The notes: generated by a model from the letters alone, not told the origin. 63,391 nt of DNA, filler included, from Reclinomonas americana ATCC 50394 (GCA_048213135.1; 8 parts of 5 records of this genome joined end to end with filler, not necessarily neighbours in it), one strand, 5' to 3'. Positions 768 to 53,280 are shown, counted from the first letter of the whole stretch. Made by a program: numbers and translations.

Positions 768-3700
768 TCACGTGTTGGTGCTCTCGCGAACCACCGACCG
801 CACCACTTCTGTTCGCTCCACCACGGCGCCACTCGAGCCGGTTCCACTCATCATCTCCAGCCGCTCACGCTCCGCCAGCAAGTGGAGACTCTCGTTGAGC
901 TCCTGCCGTGTCCGTTGCAGCTGGTCAGTGAGACCGCGGATTCGTTCCTCGCTCTTGGCGAGGATCTCGTCGCGCTCCCGCTCCAGGCTGTCAAAGCACT
1001 GGTCGGACACCTTCAATAGCTCCTCCAACTCGGTGCACTTGGCGCCGAGGCTGTCGCGCTCCGTGCGCAGCAGTTCCACGGATTCCACGGCGCGCTTGTG
1101 TTTGAGTTCGGTGGAGGAGACCGCCTCCTCCTTCTTGAGTGCCAGTTCGCGGTAGCGGCTCAGCTGAGAGTGGGGAAGGGAAATGAGGGAAAGGGGTAAA
1201 GGGGAGGGAAGGGGGAATGAAGGGAAAGGGTTGAAGGGGGGAGAAGGGGAAGGGTGGACGGGGGAAGGGGAAGGGTGCAGGGTGGAGGGTGGAGGGTTGA
1301 AAGGGTGGAGGGATGGAAAAGGTGGAAGGTTGGAAGAAGGTGAAGGGTTGAAAGAGTGGAGGGTTGCAGAGGGTAAAGAGTTGAGGGTGAAGGGTTGGAG
1401 AGAGTAGAGGGTTGGGGTGAGGGGTTGAAATGGCGGAGGGATGAGGGTGGACGATTGGAAAACGGTGAGCGTTGGGAGTGGGGGAGGCTTGGAGAAGGTG
1501 GAGGGTTGGAGAAGGGTGGAGAGGGGGAAGGGTGGAGGGTGGAGAGAAAAGGGTTGAAAGGGGAGGGTTGGAAACGACGGTTGAGAGAGGGAAAAAGGTT
1601 GAGAGCAATTGGGAATTGGTGGAGAGTTGGAAAGGTGGAGAGTTGGAAAGGTGGAGGGTTAGAGAAGGGTGGAGGATGGAGGGCGGAGAGGGGGAAGGGT
1701 GGTGGAAGGCTGTAGAGGGTGGAGGGTTGGGAGGGTGAAGAGTTGAAATGATGAAGGGTTGCAAGAGTGGAGGGTTGCAAAGGGTTGAGGGTTGAAGAGT
1801 GGTGAGGGGTGGGTTGAAATGGTGGAGGGATGAGGTTGAAGGATTGGGAAAGGGCGAAGGGTTGGAGAGGGTAAAGGGTTGAGAGCGGGTGGAGGGTTGA
1901 AAGGGGAGGGTTGGGAAAGGGTGGAGGATTGGGAGAGGGCGAAGGATGGAGGGTGGAGAGGGGGTAGGGTAGAGGGTTGAGGGTGGAGGGTGGAGAGTAA
2001 AGGTTTGAAAGGAGGTGGGTTGGGAAAGGGTGAAGGGTTGGGAAAGGGTGAGGGGTTGAAAGGGGAGGGTTGGAAAGGTGGAGCTCCCATCCGCTCTTTC
2101 CCAACCCTCCTTCCATTCGCAACCGTCCGTCCATGACCCTTCATCCTCCACCCCTTCAACCCTCTACCCTTTCCCAACACCTCCCCTTCAAATCTCCACC
2201 CTCTCCCAACCCTTTCAACCAGGGTGCAGGGTTGGAAAAGGGTCAAAGATGCTGTTTCTACCCAATCCTCTCTCACTCTCTCTCTCTCTTGCACACACAA
2301 ACCTCCTTCTCCAGCGCATTGAATCGACCCTTCCACTCCAGCAGCTCCGCCTGCAGTGCCTCGGCGTGTCGCTCCTCCATGTCGGCACGCTTCGCCTCTC
2401 GATTCCGCTGTTCTTCGCTGTCGTGGCGTGCCAACTTCAATGCAATCGAAATGAGATCACTCACCACGGAGTTCACAACAAGGGGAACATCAACGCACAT
2501 CCTTTTGTCGCAGACGAGCCTCAAGAGCGTCGATGCTGTCCTTCAGCGCCCTGTTGTCCTGCGCCAACTTGGTCGCACGCATGCGCTCCTCGTCGGCGGC
2601 CGCCGTCTGTCACATTTGCGGTAAGGGAACGATCACAAAGCAGCCAAGGGGTGGAGTGGGCGCAACTCTCGATCGCAGATCCTCCTGTCCTGTGCGCAGG
2701 AACTCGGTCAAGTCCTTGACACGGTCGGAGAGGCTCTGCACCTCGGCAGTGCGGCGATCCACCAGGTCTGTTTGCTCCGTCAACCGCCTCTGCAGCGATG
2801 TGTTTTCCTCACGCAACCGAGCCGCCTCCGACTCCTTGGCTCTGCGATACGAGGACAGTCAGCAGGCAACACCACCTAAGCGACTTACTAAAGATGCGCA
2901 ACTGAATCTCCAATCGTCTCGCGTTCTCCGTTGTGTACAAGGCCGACGTGTTTTGCGCTAGTTCCTTCTCGGCGCGCTCCACCAGTACCGACAGATCGGC
3001 GATTTCCTGCGGGGAGATGAGAGTAAAAACAATGGCCTCCCCANNNNNNNNNNNNNNNNNNNNNNNNNNNNNNNNNNNNNNNNNNNNNNNNNNNNNNNNN
3101 NNNNNNNNNNNNNNNNNNNNNNNNNNNNNNNNNNNNNNNNNNNNNNNNNNNNNNNNNNNNNNNNNNNNNNNNNNNNNNNNNNNNNNNNNNNNNNNNNNNN
3201 NNNNNNNNNNNNNNNNNNNNNNCCACATTCTCATTCACATCACACACCTGCTCACGCGCTGCCTTGGCGCTCTCGAGCTGCGCAATGTTATCTTGGAGGG
3301 CTGCAATCTGACGTCTGGAGTCGTTCAGCTGCCCTTCGAGGCCGGCCTTGGCTGCTGCGCTGCGGGCGAGCTCAGCAGTCAGCTCCTCCACGGTGTGCTG
3401 TGTCTCGCGCAGTTCGTGCTCCAGGCGGCCGTTGCGGTCTTCCAGGTCGGCGGACTGATGAAGGGGAAGGAGACGGGAGAGGGGAAGGGGGAGGAAAGGA
3501 GAAGGGGGAGAAAGGAGAAGAGACGGTGAAGGGGAAGAAAACGAGAAGGTGAGGAGAAGCCTTCTTTCTCTTCTACCCTCTGAAGACTCACCCTATCACC
3601 CGCCCGATCACGCTCCTGCTGCGCCTCGTGTCTCTCGCGAATCGCATCGGCGCGATCCTGCTCGGCGCCAGTGATGCGGTTCCTCAGCGAAGCAATCTCC

Positions 3701-4318
3701 ATGGTCGTCGTGTCCTTCAACTCGGCGTACTCCTGCGTCGACAGAGTGAGGAGGCGCGAGTCGCTCGCACAATGTGGCAATTTTCTCTCACCTTGTCCTT
3801 CTTGTGAATGGCCGCATTCAGCGTCTGCACGCGCATGCGCAGCGTCTCCAAACGCTCGTCACGCTCCTCGCGGTCGCGACGAATCTCCTCCATGGAACGC
3901 GAGTACTCTTCCTGCGATTCGTTGGCGCGTCGCTTCCACTGATCAATCTCCAGCTGCGCCTTTTGCAGACGACGGCACAACACGTCGCTCTCCTCGGTTT
4001 GCGACTTCCACAGGTTGGTGACGCGCTCCAGCTGTGGTCAATGAATAAGTGAGTGGCGGGGGGGAAAGAGTGGGAGGGAGTGAGGGAAGTCGAACCTCGG
4101 CGTTGGACTTGTCGAGGAAGTCGCTCAGCTCGGCCACTTGTTGCTCCCAGTAGCGACTGCGGAAGGGGGGAAGGGAGGTGAGATGGAAAAAAGGGAAAGG
4201 GTGCGGCGGATAGGAGACGCAACTTGGCCTCCTGCAGCTGTCTTGGCGAGGCGCTTTCGAGTTCTTGTCGCATCTGGGGAGGAGAGGAAGGAAGTGAGCC
4301 AGAGAGGGAAGAGATGAG

Positions 4319-4355
<37 letters not shown>

Positions 4356-51135: not shown

Positions 51136-51710
51136 NTGGGCGGTCGCAGTTGCCGTCGACTTGCTCGATCAGCAGCGTCATGGATTCGACGAGGCGCTTG
51201 CGGGCGTCGGTGTCGAGGACGTCCCATTGGAGGGCCCAGTGGACGCAGTTGCGGTGGAGGTTTTCCGAGACGCGGATCACCAGCTGGGATGAGGGGGAAG
51301 GGTGAGGGAGGGGAAGGGCGAGGGGGAAGGGAGAAGGGTGAAGAGAGACGGAAAAAGAGAAGGGGATGGGGAGGCAAGGAGAAAGGGGGAGAGGGAGGAC
51401 GGCGGGAAATCTCAGGAACGACAGTGTAACAGTAGCAAGAACATGAACAGAGAAGACGAGGACATCAGGGAATGTTTGTGAGCGCTGCGACGAAAAGGAA
51501 AGCGACAGACAGAGACAAAGAGGGGAAACGGAGACAAACGAAATTAGAGAACAGGACCTTATGTGTGCAATTAGGCAAAGGCGGAGTTGCGATACAATCG
51601 AAATGGACTACCAGACGTGCATTCGGAGAGTACTCATGTCTGGACAAGTGGCGGAGTTCGGTGTGCACTGAGAGACACACTGACAGCAAGGCAGGTAGAC
51701 AGGCGGACAG

Positions 51711-51757
<47 letters not shown>

Positions 51758-53280
51758 AAGAGAACAAGCGATACAACAACTCACTCCCTTGCCCACTCCA
51801 TATCCCTTTCCGTTTCCCCTCCGCCTCTCCCTCTCAACACGCAACTCTGAACAACCGCTTGAACAGCATGCGCAGCAGCACCTCCACATGCGTGTTCTTG
51901 TAGATGAGAAGGCCGCGGCGGACGAGCGGGGCGGCCGTCATGTCGAACATGACCTTGGCGCCGTAGGCGGAGAAGGCGGCCCACAGGAGGAGGGAGCGGG
52001 TGATTTCGGGGTAAAAGGGCACCCTGGAGGGAGCGGTGTCAGGGGGACAGGTAGGTGGGGAGGTTGGGAACGGTGAGGACAAACCAGGTCAGCAGTGAAA
52101 AGGCGGCGCACTCGGCGGTCCACAGCACGGCGACGTAGGACCTGTGAAAGGTGGAGGGGTAAGTTGGAAGGGAGAATAAGGCGACAGGTAAGACAGTCGT
52201 GGCAGAGCTAACTAAACAGGAGCGAGCGAAGCGCAGCGAAGCGCAGCGAAGCGCAGCGAAGCGCAGCGAAGCGCAGCGAAGCGCAGCGAAGCGCAGCGAA
52301 GCGCAGCGAAGCGCAGCGAAGCGCAGCGAAGCGCAGCGAAGCGCAGCGACTCAAGAGAGCATGGAGCGAGTGAGAGACAAAGACGGCCGTCGCAGAGAGC
52401 ATTCAACAGGAGCGAGCGAAGCGCAGCGACTCAAGAAGACACGGAGTGAGTGAGAGACGAAGACAGTCGCGGCAGGGAGAATAGAACAGGAGCGAGCGAA
52501 GCGCAGCGACTCAAGAGGACTCGGAGTGAGTGAGAGACGAAGACAGTCGCGGCAGAGAGAATAGAACAGGAGCGAGCGAAGCGCAGCGACTCACATGACT
52601 CGGAGTGAGTGAGAGACGAAGACAGTCGTCGCAGAGAGAACTAAACAGGAGCGAGCGAAGCGCAGCGACTCAGAGGGCTCGGAGTGAGTGAGAGACAAAG
52701 ACAGTCGTGGCAGCGAGAACTAAACAGGAGCGAGCGAAGCGCAGCGACTCAGAGGGCTCGGAGTGAGTGAGAGACAAAGACAGTCGTGGCAGAGAGATTT
52801 AAATAGGAGCGAGCGAAGCGCAGCGACTCAAGAGGGCACGGAGTGAGTGAGAGACGAAGACAGTCGCGGCAGAGAGAACTAAAAAGGAGCGAGCGAAGCG
52901 CAGCGACTTAATCTGACACGGAGGGAGTGAGAGACGACGACAGTCGTGGCAGAGAGAATTAAACAGGAGCGAGCGAAGCGCAGCGACTCAAGAGGGCACG
53001 GAGTGAGTGAGAGACGAAGGCAGTCGTGGCTGCGTCGACAGGCGACGAGCACAACTGGAAGAAGGAGAAGGAGACAAGACAAAAGGAGACGAGAGAGAGA
53101 GAGACACCGATCTCCTGTTGAAACAATCATACAACACCTTCCCTCCCTCCCTCCCCTCTTCCCTCTCATTCTTCCCCGCACCCTCCAACTCACCAGAAAC
53201 TCAACCACCTCGCCATCTCCGCATCCAGCGCCTTTCTCCGCAGCGACTTGAACGTGTGGAATCCCGCCCACAGATACACT
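51136..53280 (-). CDS. TB2/DP1/HVA22 (REEP/Yop1) family membrane protein, partial at both ends
   Basis: Exons give VYLWAGFHTFKSLRRKALDAEMARWLSFW|SYVAVLWTAECAAFSLLTW|VPFYPEITRSLLLWAAFSAYGAKVMFD...LFR|LVIRVSENLH.... This fits the family pattern 'S.K....WL.YW...E.....W.PFY...W......GA...Y'. Confidence 0.8.
52195..53030. repeat. Intronic ~80-bp minisatellite (about 9 units); first unit contains an expanded (GCGAAGCGCA)n, about 12 copies
   Basis: AACAGGAGCGAGCGAAGCGCAGCGACTC at ~52405, 52485, 52565, 52644, 52723, 52802, 52882 and 52962. The 10-mer run spans 52226-52349. Confidence 0.93.

What the first reader, a model, noticed from the sequence alone, without database searches (positions are those of the whole stretch)
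2660..51845. A major class of register-shifted 5' splice sites: GT-T-GCG(T/C), with the conserved +5 G displaced to +6
Seen: restoring reading frame and protein motifs across exon junctions points to donor GTTGCG[T/C] at 12 introns in 5 unrelated genes. Minus strand (first base): 2666, 2902, 4223, 6286, 7987, 51845. Plus strand: 14289, 14767, 17749, 21353, 26411, 33294. Analogous GTTGAGT (14914), GTTGTGT (16637), GTTGTGC (36932, minus), GTTTCGT (18120) and GTTTCGA (17178) also occur. That is about 17 of the roughly 70 donors I could resolve. Each equals an ordinary donor type of this genome (GTGCGT, GTGCGC, GTGAGT, GTGTGT, GTTCGT, GTTCGA) with one extra T after GT. Established: +5 G pairs with U1 and the U6 ACAGA box and is highly conserved; bulged-register 5' splice sites are described as a minority class in humans. 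Inference: this lineage routinely uses a second donor register. It could do so by bulging a U at +2/+3 against U1/U6 or through variant U1/U6 snRNAs, i.e. an unusual spliceosome.
Basis: partly seen in the sequence, partly recalled or inferred. Interest (0 to 1): 0.85.

Follow-up and report, generated by a model that had tools for sequence, protein, structure and literature searches.

The report
Recurrent GTTGCG intron start class
In this unidentified, intron-rich eukaryote an unusually large share of introns begin with the same seven letters, GTTGCG(T/C), which look like the usual start signal read one letter out of step; if RNA data confirm it, the cell's splicing machinery routinely uses a reading mode that is very rare in humans.

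Summary
All 17 strings are at the stated coordinates. No RNA data, whole genome or snRNA gene was available, so junctions were tested by reading frame, repeat register and homology.

Of the 12 GTTGCG(T/C) donors:
- 9 are supported: 2666, 2902, 4223, 7987, 14289, 14767, 17749, 21353, 33294.
- 33294 is fixed to the residue by alignment to 10 homologues.
- 6286 is ambiguous.
- 26411 and 51845 cannot be verified.

Of the five "analogous" donors, four have equally frame-consistent alternatives and 16637 cannot be verified.

A gene finder that knew only "GT" still chose GTTGCG for 8 of 83 introns, its commonest hexamer. Independence predicts 0.43 (p about 2e-8). A reversed-sequence control gave 0 of 74.

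Evidence bearing on a second register:
- GCG(T/C) sits sharply at +3 (4 introns) or +4 (10 introns).
- In every one of those ten donors the base between GT and GCG is T.
- The base before these donors is never G (0 of 10, against 17 of 25 other donors).

This fits U1 pairing shifted by one base. However, +5 G is not strict in this genome, and no snRNA could be examined. The discrete class looks real; the mechanism is inferred.

The parts
2842..2902 (-). Intron with donor GTTGCGC at 2902 (61 nt), coiled-coil gene
   Evidence: It is frame-consistent (phase 2) with acceptor CGCAG at 2842. The donor-agnostic gene finder chose it. Alternatives are a 43-nt intron from 2884 or GTAAGT at 2888 with a GAG acceptor.
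2607..2666 (-). Intron with donor GTTGCGC at 2666 (60 nt), coiled-coil gene
   Evidence: It is the only frame-consistent GT before the in-frame stop at 2612. The gene finder chose it.
4157..4223 (-). Intron with donor GTTGCGT at 4223 (67 nt), coiled-coil gene
   Evidence: It is the only frame-consistent GT-AG pair joining the two frames. The intron is pyrimidine-rich with a CGCAG acceptor.
7244..7987 (-). Intron with donor GTTGCGT at 7987 (744 nt), leucine-rich-repeat gene
   Evidence: The junction ...EAAAA|IALAL... keeps the hydrophobic residues at positions 19 and 23 of the 28-residue repeat, as in the three neighbouring repeats. Pfam LRR_6 matches the exons. The only other in-phase GTs lie 45 nt downstream, next to the stop.
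14289..14378 (+). Intron with donor GTTGCGT at 14289 (90 nt), NHL/REJ receptor-like gene
   Evidence: The junction restores the NHL motif ...YVSDSLGNA-I-RKV... via the microexon. The alternative GTACGT at 14259 would delete the YVxD strand.
14379..14385 (+). Inferred 7-nt microexon between two short introns (90 and 65 nt)
   Evidence: It is the only way found to join frame 1 (...GNA) to frame 0 (VTLPGAVVTRVAG...) with GT-AG introns while keeping the 20-residue spacing seen in the neighbouring NHL repeat. This is inferred, without RNA.
14767..14839 (+). Intron with donor GTTGCGT at 14767 (73 nt), NHL/REJ gene
   Evidence: It is a phase-1 donor matching acceptor GTGCAG|TT. The only alternative (14734) deletes 11 residues of the NHL repeat.
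17749..17812 (+). Intron with donor GTTGCGT at 17749 (64 nt), NHL/REJ gene
   Evidence: It is the only phase-1 donor for acceptor TTTCAG. The alternatives need a GAG acceptor. The gene finder chose it.
21353..21421 (+). Intron with donor GTTGCGT at 21353 (69 nt), same large plus-strand gene
   Evidence: It is in phase 0, with an in-frame stop at 21392. The single alternative is GTCATG at 21365. The gene finder chose it.
33294..34445 (+). Intron with donor GTTGCGT at 33294 (1152 nt), peptidase-A4-like gene
   Evidence: It is the unique frame-consistent GT. Exon ends abut exactly in the alignment with 10 homologues...YTI[SAV]Y|[FIV]V[FYM]EK.... tblastn of P0013 places residues 96-162 on 33093-33293 and residues 163-225 on 34446-34634.
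5162..6286 (-). Possible first intron of the coiled-coil gene, donor GTTGCGT at 6286 (ambiguous)
   Evidence: It is frame-consistent, but GTCGTT at 6289 is in the same phase.
26411..26417 (+). GTTGCGT at a probable exon end (unverifiable)
   Evidence: The upstream exon matches UBX profile positions 12-39 of 82, so the protein should continue. The acceptor is hidden by the N run 26490-26910. GTGAGG at 26419 is an alternative.
51839..51845 (-). GTTGCGT at the end of an open frame (unverifiable)
   Evidence: An in-frame stop lies 9 nt downstream and no downstream exon was identified. It may be the C-terminus.

Best explanation
GTTGCG(T/C) is a genuine and frequent class of 5' splice sites in this organism. 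It makes up roughly one intron in ten to one in four in this window. The intron is cut in front of the GT, as the reading frames require. The recognition motif GCG(T/C), which in ordinary donors sits at +3 to +6 (GT|GCGT), here sits one base further in, with T as the extra base in all ten curated cases.

The most likely mechanism is pairing of the 5' end of U1 snRNA in a register shifted by one base. A|GUUGCGU is read like AG|GUGCGU with one mismatch. The cleavage position is then set at the only available GU by the later U5/U6/Prp8 steps.

Shown here: the class exists, it is non-random, it has two sharp registers, and G is depleted at -1. Inferred: the involvement of U1 and the shift itself.
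For: 1. Junction support. 9 of the 12 claimed sites are supported by frame enumeration and by repeat register. One of them, 33294, is fixed to the residue by alignment to 10 homologues.
2. Donor-agnostic gene finder. GTTGCG is the commonest and most enriched donor hexamer: 8 of 83, against 40 of 6858 GT sites (p = 3.6e-8). Independence predicts 0.43 (p = 2.1e-8). Rejected antisense models gave 1 of 74 and the reversed-window control 0 of 74.
3. Two registers. GCG(T/C) starts at +3 in 4 and at +4 in 10 of 35 curated introns, and is scattered elsewhere (at most 2 per position; 0.21 expected).
4. Spacer. All ten curated donors with GCG(T/C) at +4 have T between GT and GCG, although GT[A/C/G]GCG[T/C] strings exist (4, 13 and 32 copies).
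5. The -1 base. It is A5 T3 C2 G0 in the class, against G in 17 of 25 other donors (Fisher p = 3.4e-4). The -2 base of the other donors is A in 14 of 25. Of the four further homology-defined donors, three have G at -1.
6. Pairing count by hand, against the canonical U1 5' end AUAC-psi-psi-ACCUG as printed in PMC4856993 (passages read). The canonical register gives about 3 pairs. The shifted register gives 6-7, including -1 A:U10 and +8 G.U2.
7. Not a repeat family. The short GTTGCG introns share nothing beyond the donor (blastn all-against-all).
Against: - No transcript evidence. Every junction is inferred from frames, repeats or homology.
- The organism's U1, U5 and U6 are unknown.
- Donors here are generally degenerate (GTCTCT, GTACAT, GTTCCT, GTTCAC), so U1 pairing may matter little.
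- With a canonical U1, GUUGAGU should pair better than GUUGCGU. Yet GTTGAG has at most one ambiguous case against 9-10 GTTGCG, while unshifted GTGAG (5) and GTGCG (4) are about equal. A pure shift of every ordinary donor is therefore not what is seen.
- A bulged U at +2/+3 explains the spacer equally well. Only the -1 statistic (n = 10) favours the shift.
- The heptamer is not sufficient on its own. Sense-strand copies inside exons (2817, 41774, 44904) are apparently not spliced.
Confidence: 0.5

Rival explanations
1. Lineage-specific snRNA or protein recognition. The organism has a U1 (or a second U1 paralogue, or a U6 or U1C/Luc7-type factor) whose normal-register optimum is GUUGCGU. The class would then be canonical for that component, not shifted.
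For: GTTGCG is the single commonest donor hexamer (8 of 83; 10 of 35 curated), ahead of GTGCGT. The preference for GCG over GAG is not what the canonical U1 5' end predicts (hand count from the U1 sequence in PMC4856993). +3 T is frequent in other donors too: GTTCGT, GTTCGA, GTTTGT, GTTTGG, GTTCCT.
Against: The U1 5' end is almost invariant across eukaryotes (established knowledge, recalled). The nearest named homologue of one gene is from the choanoflagellate Salpingoeca rosetta, a group with ordinary spliceosomes as far as I recall. Ordinary GTGAGT, GTAAGT and GTGCGT donors coexist in the same genes. No snRNA could be examined.
Confidence: 0.2
2. Bulged-U register. U1 pairs with +1 G and +2 U normally, one of the two U's at +2/+3 bulges out, and the rest pairs as in GUGCGU.
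For: This gives the same spacer specificity (T in all ten curated cases) and the same two-register pattern. Bulge +2/+3 registers are documented in humans (PMC4856993, passages read).
Against: This register keeps -1 paired to U1 C9 and so predicts the usual G at -1. The observed count is 0 of 10, against 17 of 25 in other donors. The sample is small.
Confidence: 0.15
3. No special register. 5' splice sites here carry little information beyond GT, and GTTGCG(T/C) recurs for another reason, such as a local sequence bias or an intronic enhancer. Alternatively, several junctions are mis-modelled.
For: Homology-forced donors such as GTCTCT show that weak sites work. Junctions rest on inference only. 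All five analogues and 3 of the 12 sites are ambiguous or unverifiable.
Against: The position of GCG(T/C) is sharp, not loose. Enrichment is 16-fold over all GT sites and absent in both controls. One junction is fixed by homology. The interior rate of GCG(T/C) in introns is only 31 in 5108 positions.
Confidence: 0.1

Closest known systems
Shifted (+1) register 5' splice sites of humans (Roca and Krainer; summarised in Tan et al. 2016, PMC4856993)
   Same: The intron starts with GU, but the nucleotides that match the U1 consensus lie one position further in. The test oligonucleotide printed in that paper, ACA|GUCAAGUAUA, relates to CAG|GUAAGUAU in the same way as A|GUUGCGU relates to AG|GUGCGU.
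   Different: In humans all validated noncanonical registers together make up 1.5% of 201,541 sites. Here one heptamer accounts for 8 of 83 (gene finder) to 10 of 35 (curated, biased sample). The tail is GCGU rather than AAGU. No suppressor-U1 proof exists here.
Bulge +2/+3 register 5' splice sites (Roca et al. 2012; table in PMC4856993)
   Same: GU followed by an extra U, then the consensus tail.
   Different: Only 68 predicted (54 curated) human sites. The -1 G depletion seen here argues against this register.
Tandem or degenerate donors of intron-rich protists and fungi with weak 5' splice-site consensus
   Same: Short introns (about 60-90 nt), YAG acceptors and variable +3 to +6 positions.
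   Different: A weak consensus does not predict one exact heptamer recurring far above the product of its single-position frequencies.

Membership tests
Shifted (+1) register U2-type 5' splice sites | Cleavage occurs at a GU that is one base upstream of the position implied by the best U1 pairing | tested here: inconclusive
   Frames, repeat register and homology place the exon end directly before GT at nine sites. Sliding the junction by one base is excluded, because the base after the acceptor is G in only 1 of 9. No RNA confirms the cleavage site.
Shifted (+1) register U2-type 5' splice sites | More base pairs to the U1 5' end in the shifted than in the canonical register | tested here: inconclusive
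   A hand count against the canonical U1 5' end (sequence as printed in PMC4856993) gives about 3 pairs canonical and 6-7 shifted. The organism's own U1 is unknown.
Shifted (+1) register U2-type 5' splice sites | Exon-side preferences move with the register (-1 takes the preference of -2) | tested here: met
   -1 is A5 T3 C2 G0 in 10 GTTGCG donors. The other 25 donors have -1 G in 17 and -2 A in 14 (Fisher p = 3.4e-4 for -1 G).
Shifted (+1) register U2-type 5' splice sites | Rescue of point mutants by suppressor U1 in the shifted but not the canonical register | not testable with these tools
   This is an experiment.
Bulge +2/+3 register 5' splice sites | Canonical pairing at -1 to +2 (so the usual -1 G) plus one bulged U | tested here: not met
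   The spacer is T in all ten curated cases, but -1 G is 0 of 10. The sample is small.
U12-type (minor spliceosome) introns | 5' splice site of the form RTATCCTT (consensus recalled) | tested here: not met
   None of the 12 sites resembles it.
Introner-like mobile intron families | Introns share sequence along their length | tested here: not met
   In blastn all-against-all of 35 curated introns, the short GTTGCG introns share only 10-15-nt chance or low-complexity matches. Only the long introns match each other, through CT/GA low-complexity tracts.

The most novel reading that the evidence does not exclude
This lineage has re-tuned 5' splice-site recognition itself. Either a variant or second U1 (or U6/U1C-type factor) makes GUUGCGU a primary, normal-register signal, or two pairing registers are used side by side as a regular feature of the spliceosome. 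In either case the commonest single donor sequence of the genome would be one that canonical models score as nearly non-functional.
Probability: 0.2. Interest if true: 0.85.

Novelty: new variant of a known kind. Interest (0 to 1): 0.6.

Why it matters
Noncanonical U1 registers are known from human minigene work as a rare exception: 1.5% of sites for all registers together, and tens of sites for the bulge +2/+3 type (PMC4856993). An organism in which one such site type makes up a tenth to a quarter of introns would be a natural system for two questions. One is how U1 binding and the later choice of the cleavage site are uncoupled. The other is how much slack U6, U5 and Prp8 allow.

There is also a practical side. 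Gene finders that score donors with a position matrix would penalise or miss these introns. In my own runs the microexon-linked sites 14289 and 14767 were mis-modelled. Annotations of this lineage may therefore be systematically wrong.

I found no description of a GTTGCG donor class in print. The searches were made, and I saw listings only. The organism is unidentified, so a lineage-specific paper could have been missed.

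Tried and rejected
- Whole genome: none held.
- RNA runs: no RNA holder was listed for 13500-19500, so read laying could not be used.
- Rfam: only a tRNA reaches its threshold. 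At E up to 1 there are only sub-threshold matches, most on low-complexity tracts, and no spliceosomal snRNA.
- Homologues of the REJ/GPS exon. The word-index search of longer proteins found none. HMMER over 1.84 billion representatives gave two short exon-sized hits. A metagenome scan with their alignment found no relative.
- The 815-aa ORF has no homologue.
- ESM Atlas gave family-level hits only and no taxonomy.
- A simple 'open frame on both sides' test for donors was useless: 59% of all 6862 GT sites pass.
- Codon-usage-only gene finders were too noisy. They were replaced by a 3-periodic Markov model with self-training. That model still mis-models parts of the NHL region.
- The WD40 5' region 44260-42650 is G-rich with degenerate repeats, and I could not model it reliably.
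- Pfam on the second A4-like exon and on the exon before 51845 gave nothing.
- Literature: searches failed on term format. Searches were re-sent corrected. One search was dropped.

Full report
**Material and limits**

The window is 63,391 bases, of which 7,446 are masked as N in 27 runs. It is about 55% G+C outside the N runs. No whole genome is held. No RNA run was listed. Rfam finds only a tRNA at 10903-10973 above threshold and no spliceosomal snRNA even at E up to 1. Every junction below is therefore inferred from reading frames, internal repeats or protein homology, never from transcripts.

Genes recognised (Pfam):
- a coiled-coil protein, minus strand, about 6.4-2.3 kb;
- a leucine-rich-repeat protein, minus strand, 8.6-6.7 kb;
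- an aldolase fragment at 11.7-12.0 kb;
- a large NHL/REJ/GPS receptor-like gene, plus strand, from 13.5 kb;
- a UBX-domain gene near 26.3 kb;
- a peptidase-A4-like gene, plus strand, 29.9-34.7 kb;
- WD40 genes, minus strand, 37.9-45.3 kb;
- a mitochondrial carrier, minus strand, 49-46.8 kb.

**The strings**

GTTGCGT occurs 14 times and GTTGCGC 13 times on both strands.

**Junction-by-junction test**

I printed three-frame translations around the claimed sites. For 35 junctions I then enumerated every GT-AG pair that joins the upstream and downstream frames without a stop.

Results for the twelve GTTGCG(T/C) sites:
- 2666, 4223 and 33294 are the only frame-consistent GT for their junction.
- 7987 joins ...LEQEAAAA to IALALEND.... 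This places the hydrophobic residues at positions 19 and 23 of the 28-residue repeat, exactly as in the three neighbouring repeats.
- 14767 gives ...SSINGP-L-NMATVNAP... in register with the other NHL blades.
- 14289 gives ...YVSDSLGNA-I-RK-VTLPGAVVTRVAG..., with the same 20-residue spacing as the preceding blade. This works only through a 7-nt microexon at 14379-14385 flanked by introns of 90 and 65 nt.
- 17749 is the only donor in phase with the TTTCAG acceptor.
- 21353 has one weak competitor, GTCATG.
- 2902 competes with a 43-nt intron or a GAG acceptor.
- 6286 is ambiguous, because GTCGTT at 6289 is in the same phase.
- 26411 ends an exon that matches UBX profile positions 12-39 of 82, so an intron is needed. 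The acceptor is hidden in an N run, and GTGAGG at 26419 is possible.
- 51845 is followed by an in-frame stop after 9 nt and may simply be the C-terminus.

Nine of the twelve are thus supported, in four genes.

Results for the five 'analogous' donors:
- 14914, 17178, 18120 and 36932 have equally frame-consistent alternatives. For 18120 the alternative includes a consensus GTAAGT five bases downstream, paired with other acceptors.
- 16637 cannot be verified. It lies 26 nt after an N run.

**Homology proof for one site**

The last protein search, using the exon after 33294, found 14 relatives. They include a Trinity transcript from EukProt and Salpingoeca rosetta PTSG_04950, with the named hits at 55-67% identity.

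In the alignment, exon 5 ends ...DYKNYTISY and exon 6 begins FVFEKDAEC.... These fall in adjacent columns, with no gap or overlap against 10 homologues. tblastn places P0013 residues 96-162 on 33093-33293 and residues 163-225 on 34446-34634.

The same homologues fix the other four donors of this gene: GTGTGT at 30006, GTGAGT at 31875, GTGAGT at 32910 and GTGCGC at 33035.

Together with the aldolase junction (GTGTGT at 11878) and three carrier junctions, nine junctions are homology-defined. The carrier junctions are GTTTGG at 48957, GTCTCT at 48842 and GTGTGG at 48457 (Pfam). They were fixed using the Px[D/E]xx[K/R]x[R/K]xQ carrier signature, which I recalled rather than retrieved. One of the nine is GTTGCG.

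**Is it more than chance?**

I wrote a gene finder that scores exons with a self-trained 3-periodic second-order Markov model. It also uses acceptors and intron length. It knows nothing about donors beyond GT.
- Among its 83 predicted introns in 19 kept models, GTTGCG is the commonest hexamer, with 8 cases: 2902, 2666, 7987, 4223, 17541, 17749, 21353 and 33294.
- All GT sites give 40 of 6858, so the binomial p is 3.6e-8.
- The single-position frequencies in the same 83 donors predict 0.43, so the Poisson p is 2.1e-8.
- The 19 rejected, mostly antisense, models have 1 of 74.
- The same pipeline on the reversed window has 0 of 74, although 38 GTTGCG sites are present.

In my curated set, 10 of 35 junctions start GTTGCG. 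A fair statement is roughly 10-25% of introns.

**What kind of class?**
- In the 35 curated introns, GCG(T/C) begins at +3 in 4 and at +4 in 10. It is scattered elsewhere in the first 30 nt: at most 2 per position, against 0.21 expected from 31 occurrences in 5108 interior positions.
- In all ten curated donors with GCG(T/C) at +4 the base between GT and GCG is T. Other spacers exist in the window: GTAGCG(T/C) 4, GTCGCG(T/C) 13 and GTGGCG(T/C) 32 copies.
- The exon base before the class is A5 T3 C2 G0. The other 25 donors have G at -1 in 17 and A at -2 in 14 (Fisher p = 3.4e-4).
- Copies of the heptamer with G at -1 (2817, 5035, 21317, 60009) include none of the candidate donor sites: 2817 lies inside an exon, 5035 and 21317 are antisense, and 60009 was not examined.
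- The whole site therefore reads A|GTTGCGT against AG|GTGCGT, which is one substitution with the cut moved one base upstream.
- The short GTTGCG introns share no other sequence, so this is not a mobile intron family.

**Mechanism**

Tan et al. 2016 (PMC4856993; passages read) describe human 5' splice sites that pair with U1 in a register shifted by one, or with a bulged nucleotide.
- Validated noncanonical registers make up 1.5% of 201,541 human sites.
- The bulge +2/+3 type has 68 predicted sites.
- The same passages state that U1 can pair at some distance from the site finally cut.

Counting by hand against the canonical U1 5' end printed there:
- GUUGCGU forms about 3 pairs in the normal register.
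- It forms 6-7 in the shifted one (-1 A:U10, +1 G:C9, +3 U:A7, +4 G.psi6, +6 G:C4, +7 U:A3, often +8 G.U2).
- It forms 5-6 plus a bulge in the bulge register.
- The bulge register predicts the usual G at -1, which is absent, so I prefer the shift.

This step is inference. It assumes a canonical U1.

**What speaks against a simple story**
- Donors in this genome are loose. Junctions fixed by homology or by a unique frame-consistent GT use GTCTCT, GTACAT and GTTCCT, and +3 is T in many non-class donors.
- A general shift should produce GTTGAGT about as often as GTTGCGT, since GTGAG and GTGCG donors are about equally common (5 and 4). Yet GTTGAG has at most one ambiguous case.
- A canonical U1 would pair better with GAGU than with GCGU.
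- These points leave room for a lineage-specific recognition component, or for a determinant other than U1.
- The heptamer is also not sufficient by itself. Sense-strand copies inside long exons (2817, 41774, 44904) appear unspliced.

**Known or new?**

Noncanonical registers are established, so the kind is known. A single such heptamer as the commonest donor of a genome is not something I could find. Full-text searches for GUUGCG or GTTGCG with splice terms returned only incidental primer-type hits. Searches on choanoflagellates or Salpingoeca with splice-site terms returned nothing relevant. These were, and I saw listings only.

The organism is unidentified. The only hint is the S. rosetta homologue, and most other genes have no relatives in the databases.

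**Verdict**

The register-shift reading is the best available explanation, at about even odds, and it needs RNA data and the snRNA genes.

Noticed in passing
window 14379-14385 (+): An inferred 7-nt microexon lies between introns of 90 and 65 nt in the NHL-repeat region. Its own donor would be GTTCAC.
   Followed up: partly
window 48842 (-), 8518 (-), 8315 (-), 4095 (-), 4643 (-), 48957 (-): Donors fixed by homology or by a unique frame-consistent GT lack the usual features. GTCTCT, GTACAT and GTTCCT have no +5 G. GTTCGA, GTTTGT and GTTTGG have +3 T. The 5' splice-site consensus of this organism is loose, and +3 T is unusually common.
   Followed up: partly
window 29967-34712 (+): A six-exon gene encodes a secreted-looking peptidase-A4-family (PF01828) protein. 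Its relatives are at 55-67% identity, and the only named one is Salpingoeca rosetta PTSG_04950. This is the sole hint to the organism's affinity.
   Followed up: partly
window 26318-26410 (+): This exon matches UBX profile positions 12-39 of 82. The rest of the domain must lie beyond the N run 26490-26910.
   Followed up: no
window 11746-12010 (+): Two exons of a class-I fructose-bisphosphate aldolase are present, most similar to plant cytosolic enzymes in the PDB search. No further exon is visible before the N run at 12767. The second donor would be GTTTGC.
   Followed up: no
window 25336-25435, 37266-37365, 46614-46713, 51037-51136, 53281-53380, 58107-58206, 60331-60430: Seven pairs of 44-base N runs are each separated by exactly 12 bases. 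This looks like regular masking rather than assembly gaps.
   Followed up: no
window 43200-44260 (-): A G-rich stretch carries degenerate WD40-like pieces (for example ...SGSWDRSVRVW...) in several frames. I could not model it. It may be a decayed repeat region or very short exons.
   Followed up: partly
window 5162-6286, 7244-7987, 33294-34445, 47048-48457, 4274-4643: The few long introns (370-1410 nt) are filled with CT/GA low-complexity tracts and match each other only through these.
   Followed up: partly
window 2817 (-), 41774 (-), 44904 (-): Sense-strand copies of GTTGCG(T/C) inside exons are apparently not used as donors. 2817 has G at -1.
   Followed up: partly
window 55269-57713 (-): An 815-residue open frame has no Pfam family and no homologue among candidates of 448-1427 residues.
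   Followed up: partly
window 42256 (-) and 42284-42257: A 27-nt mini-exon lies upstream of the 1423-residue WD40 exon. Its donor is either GTTGCT (one letter from the class) or GTTTGT a few bases upstream.
   Followed up: partly
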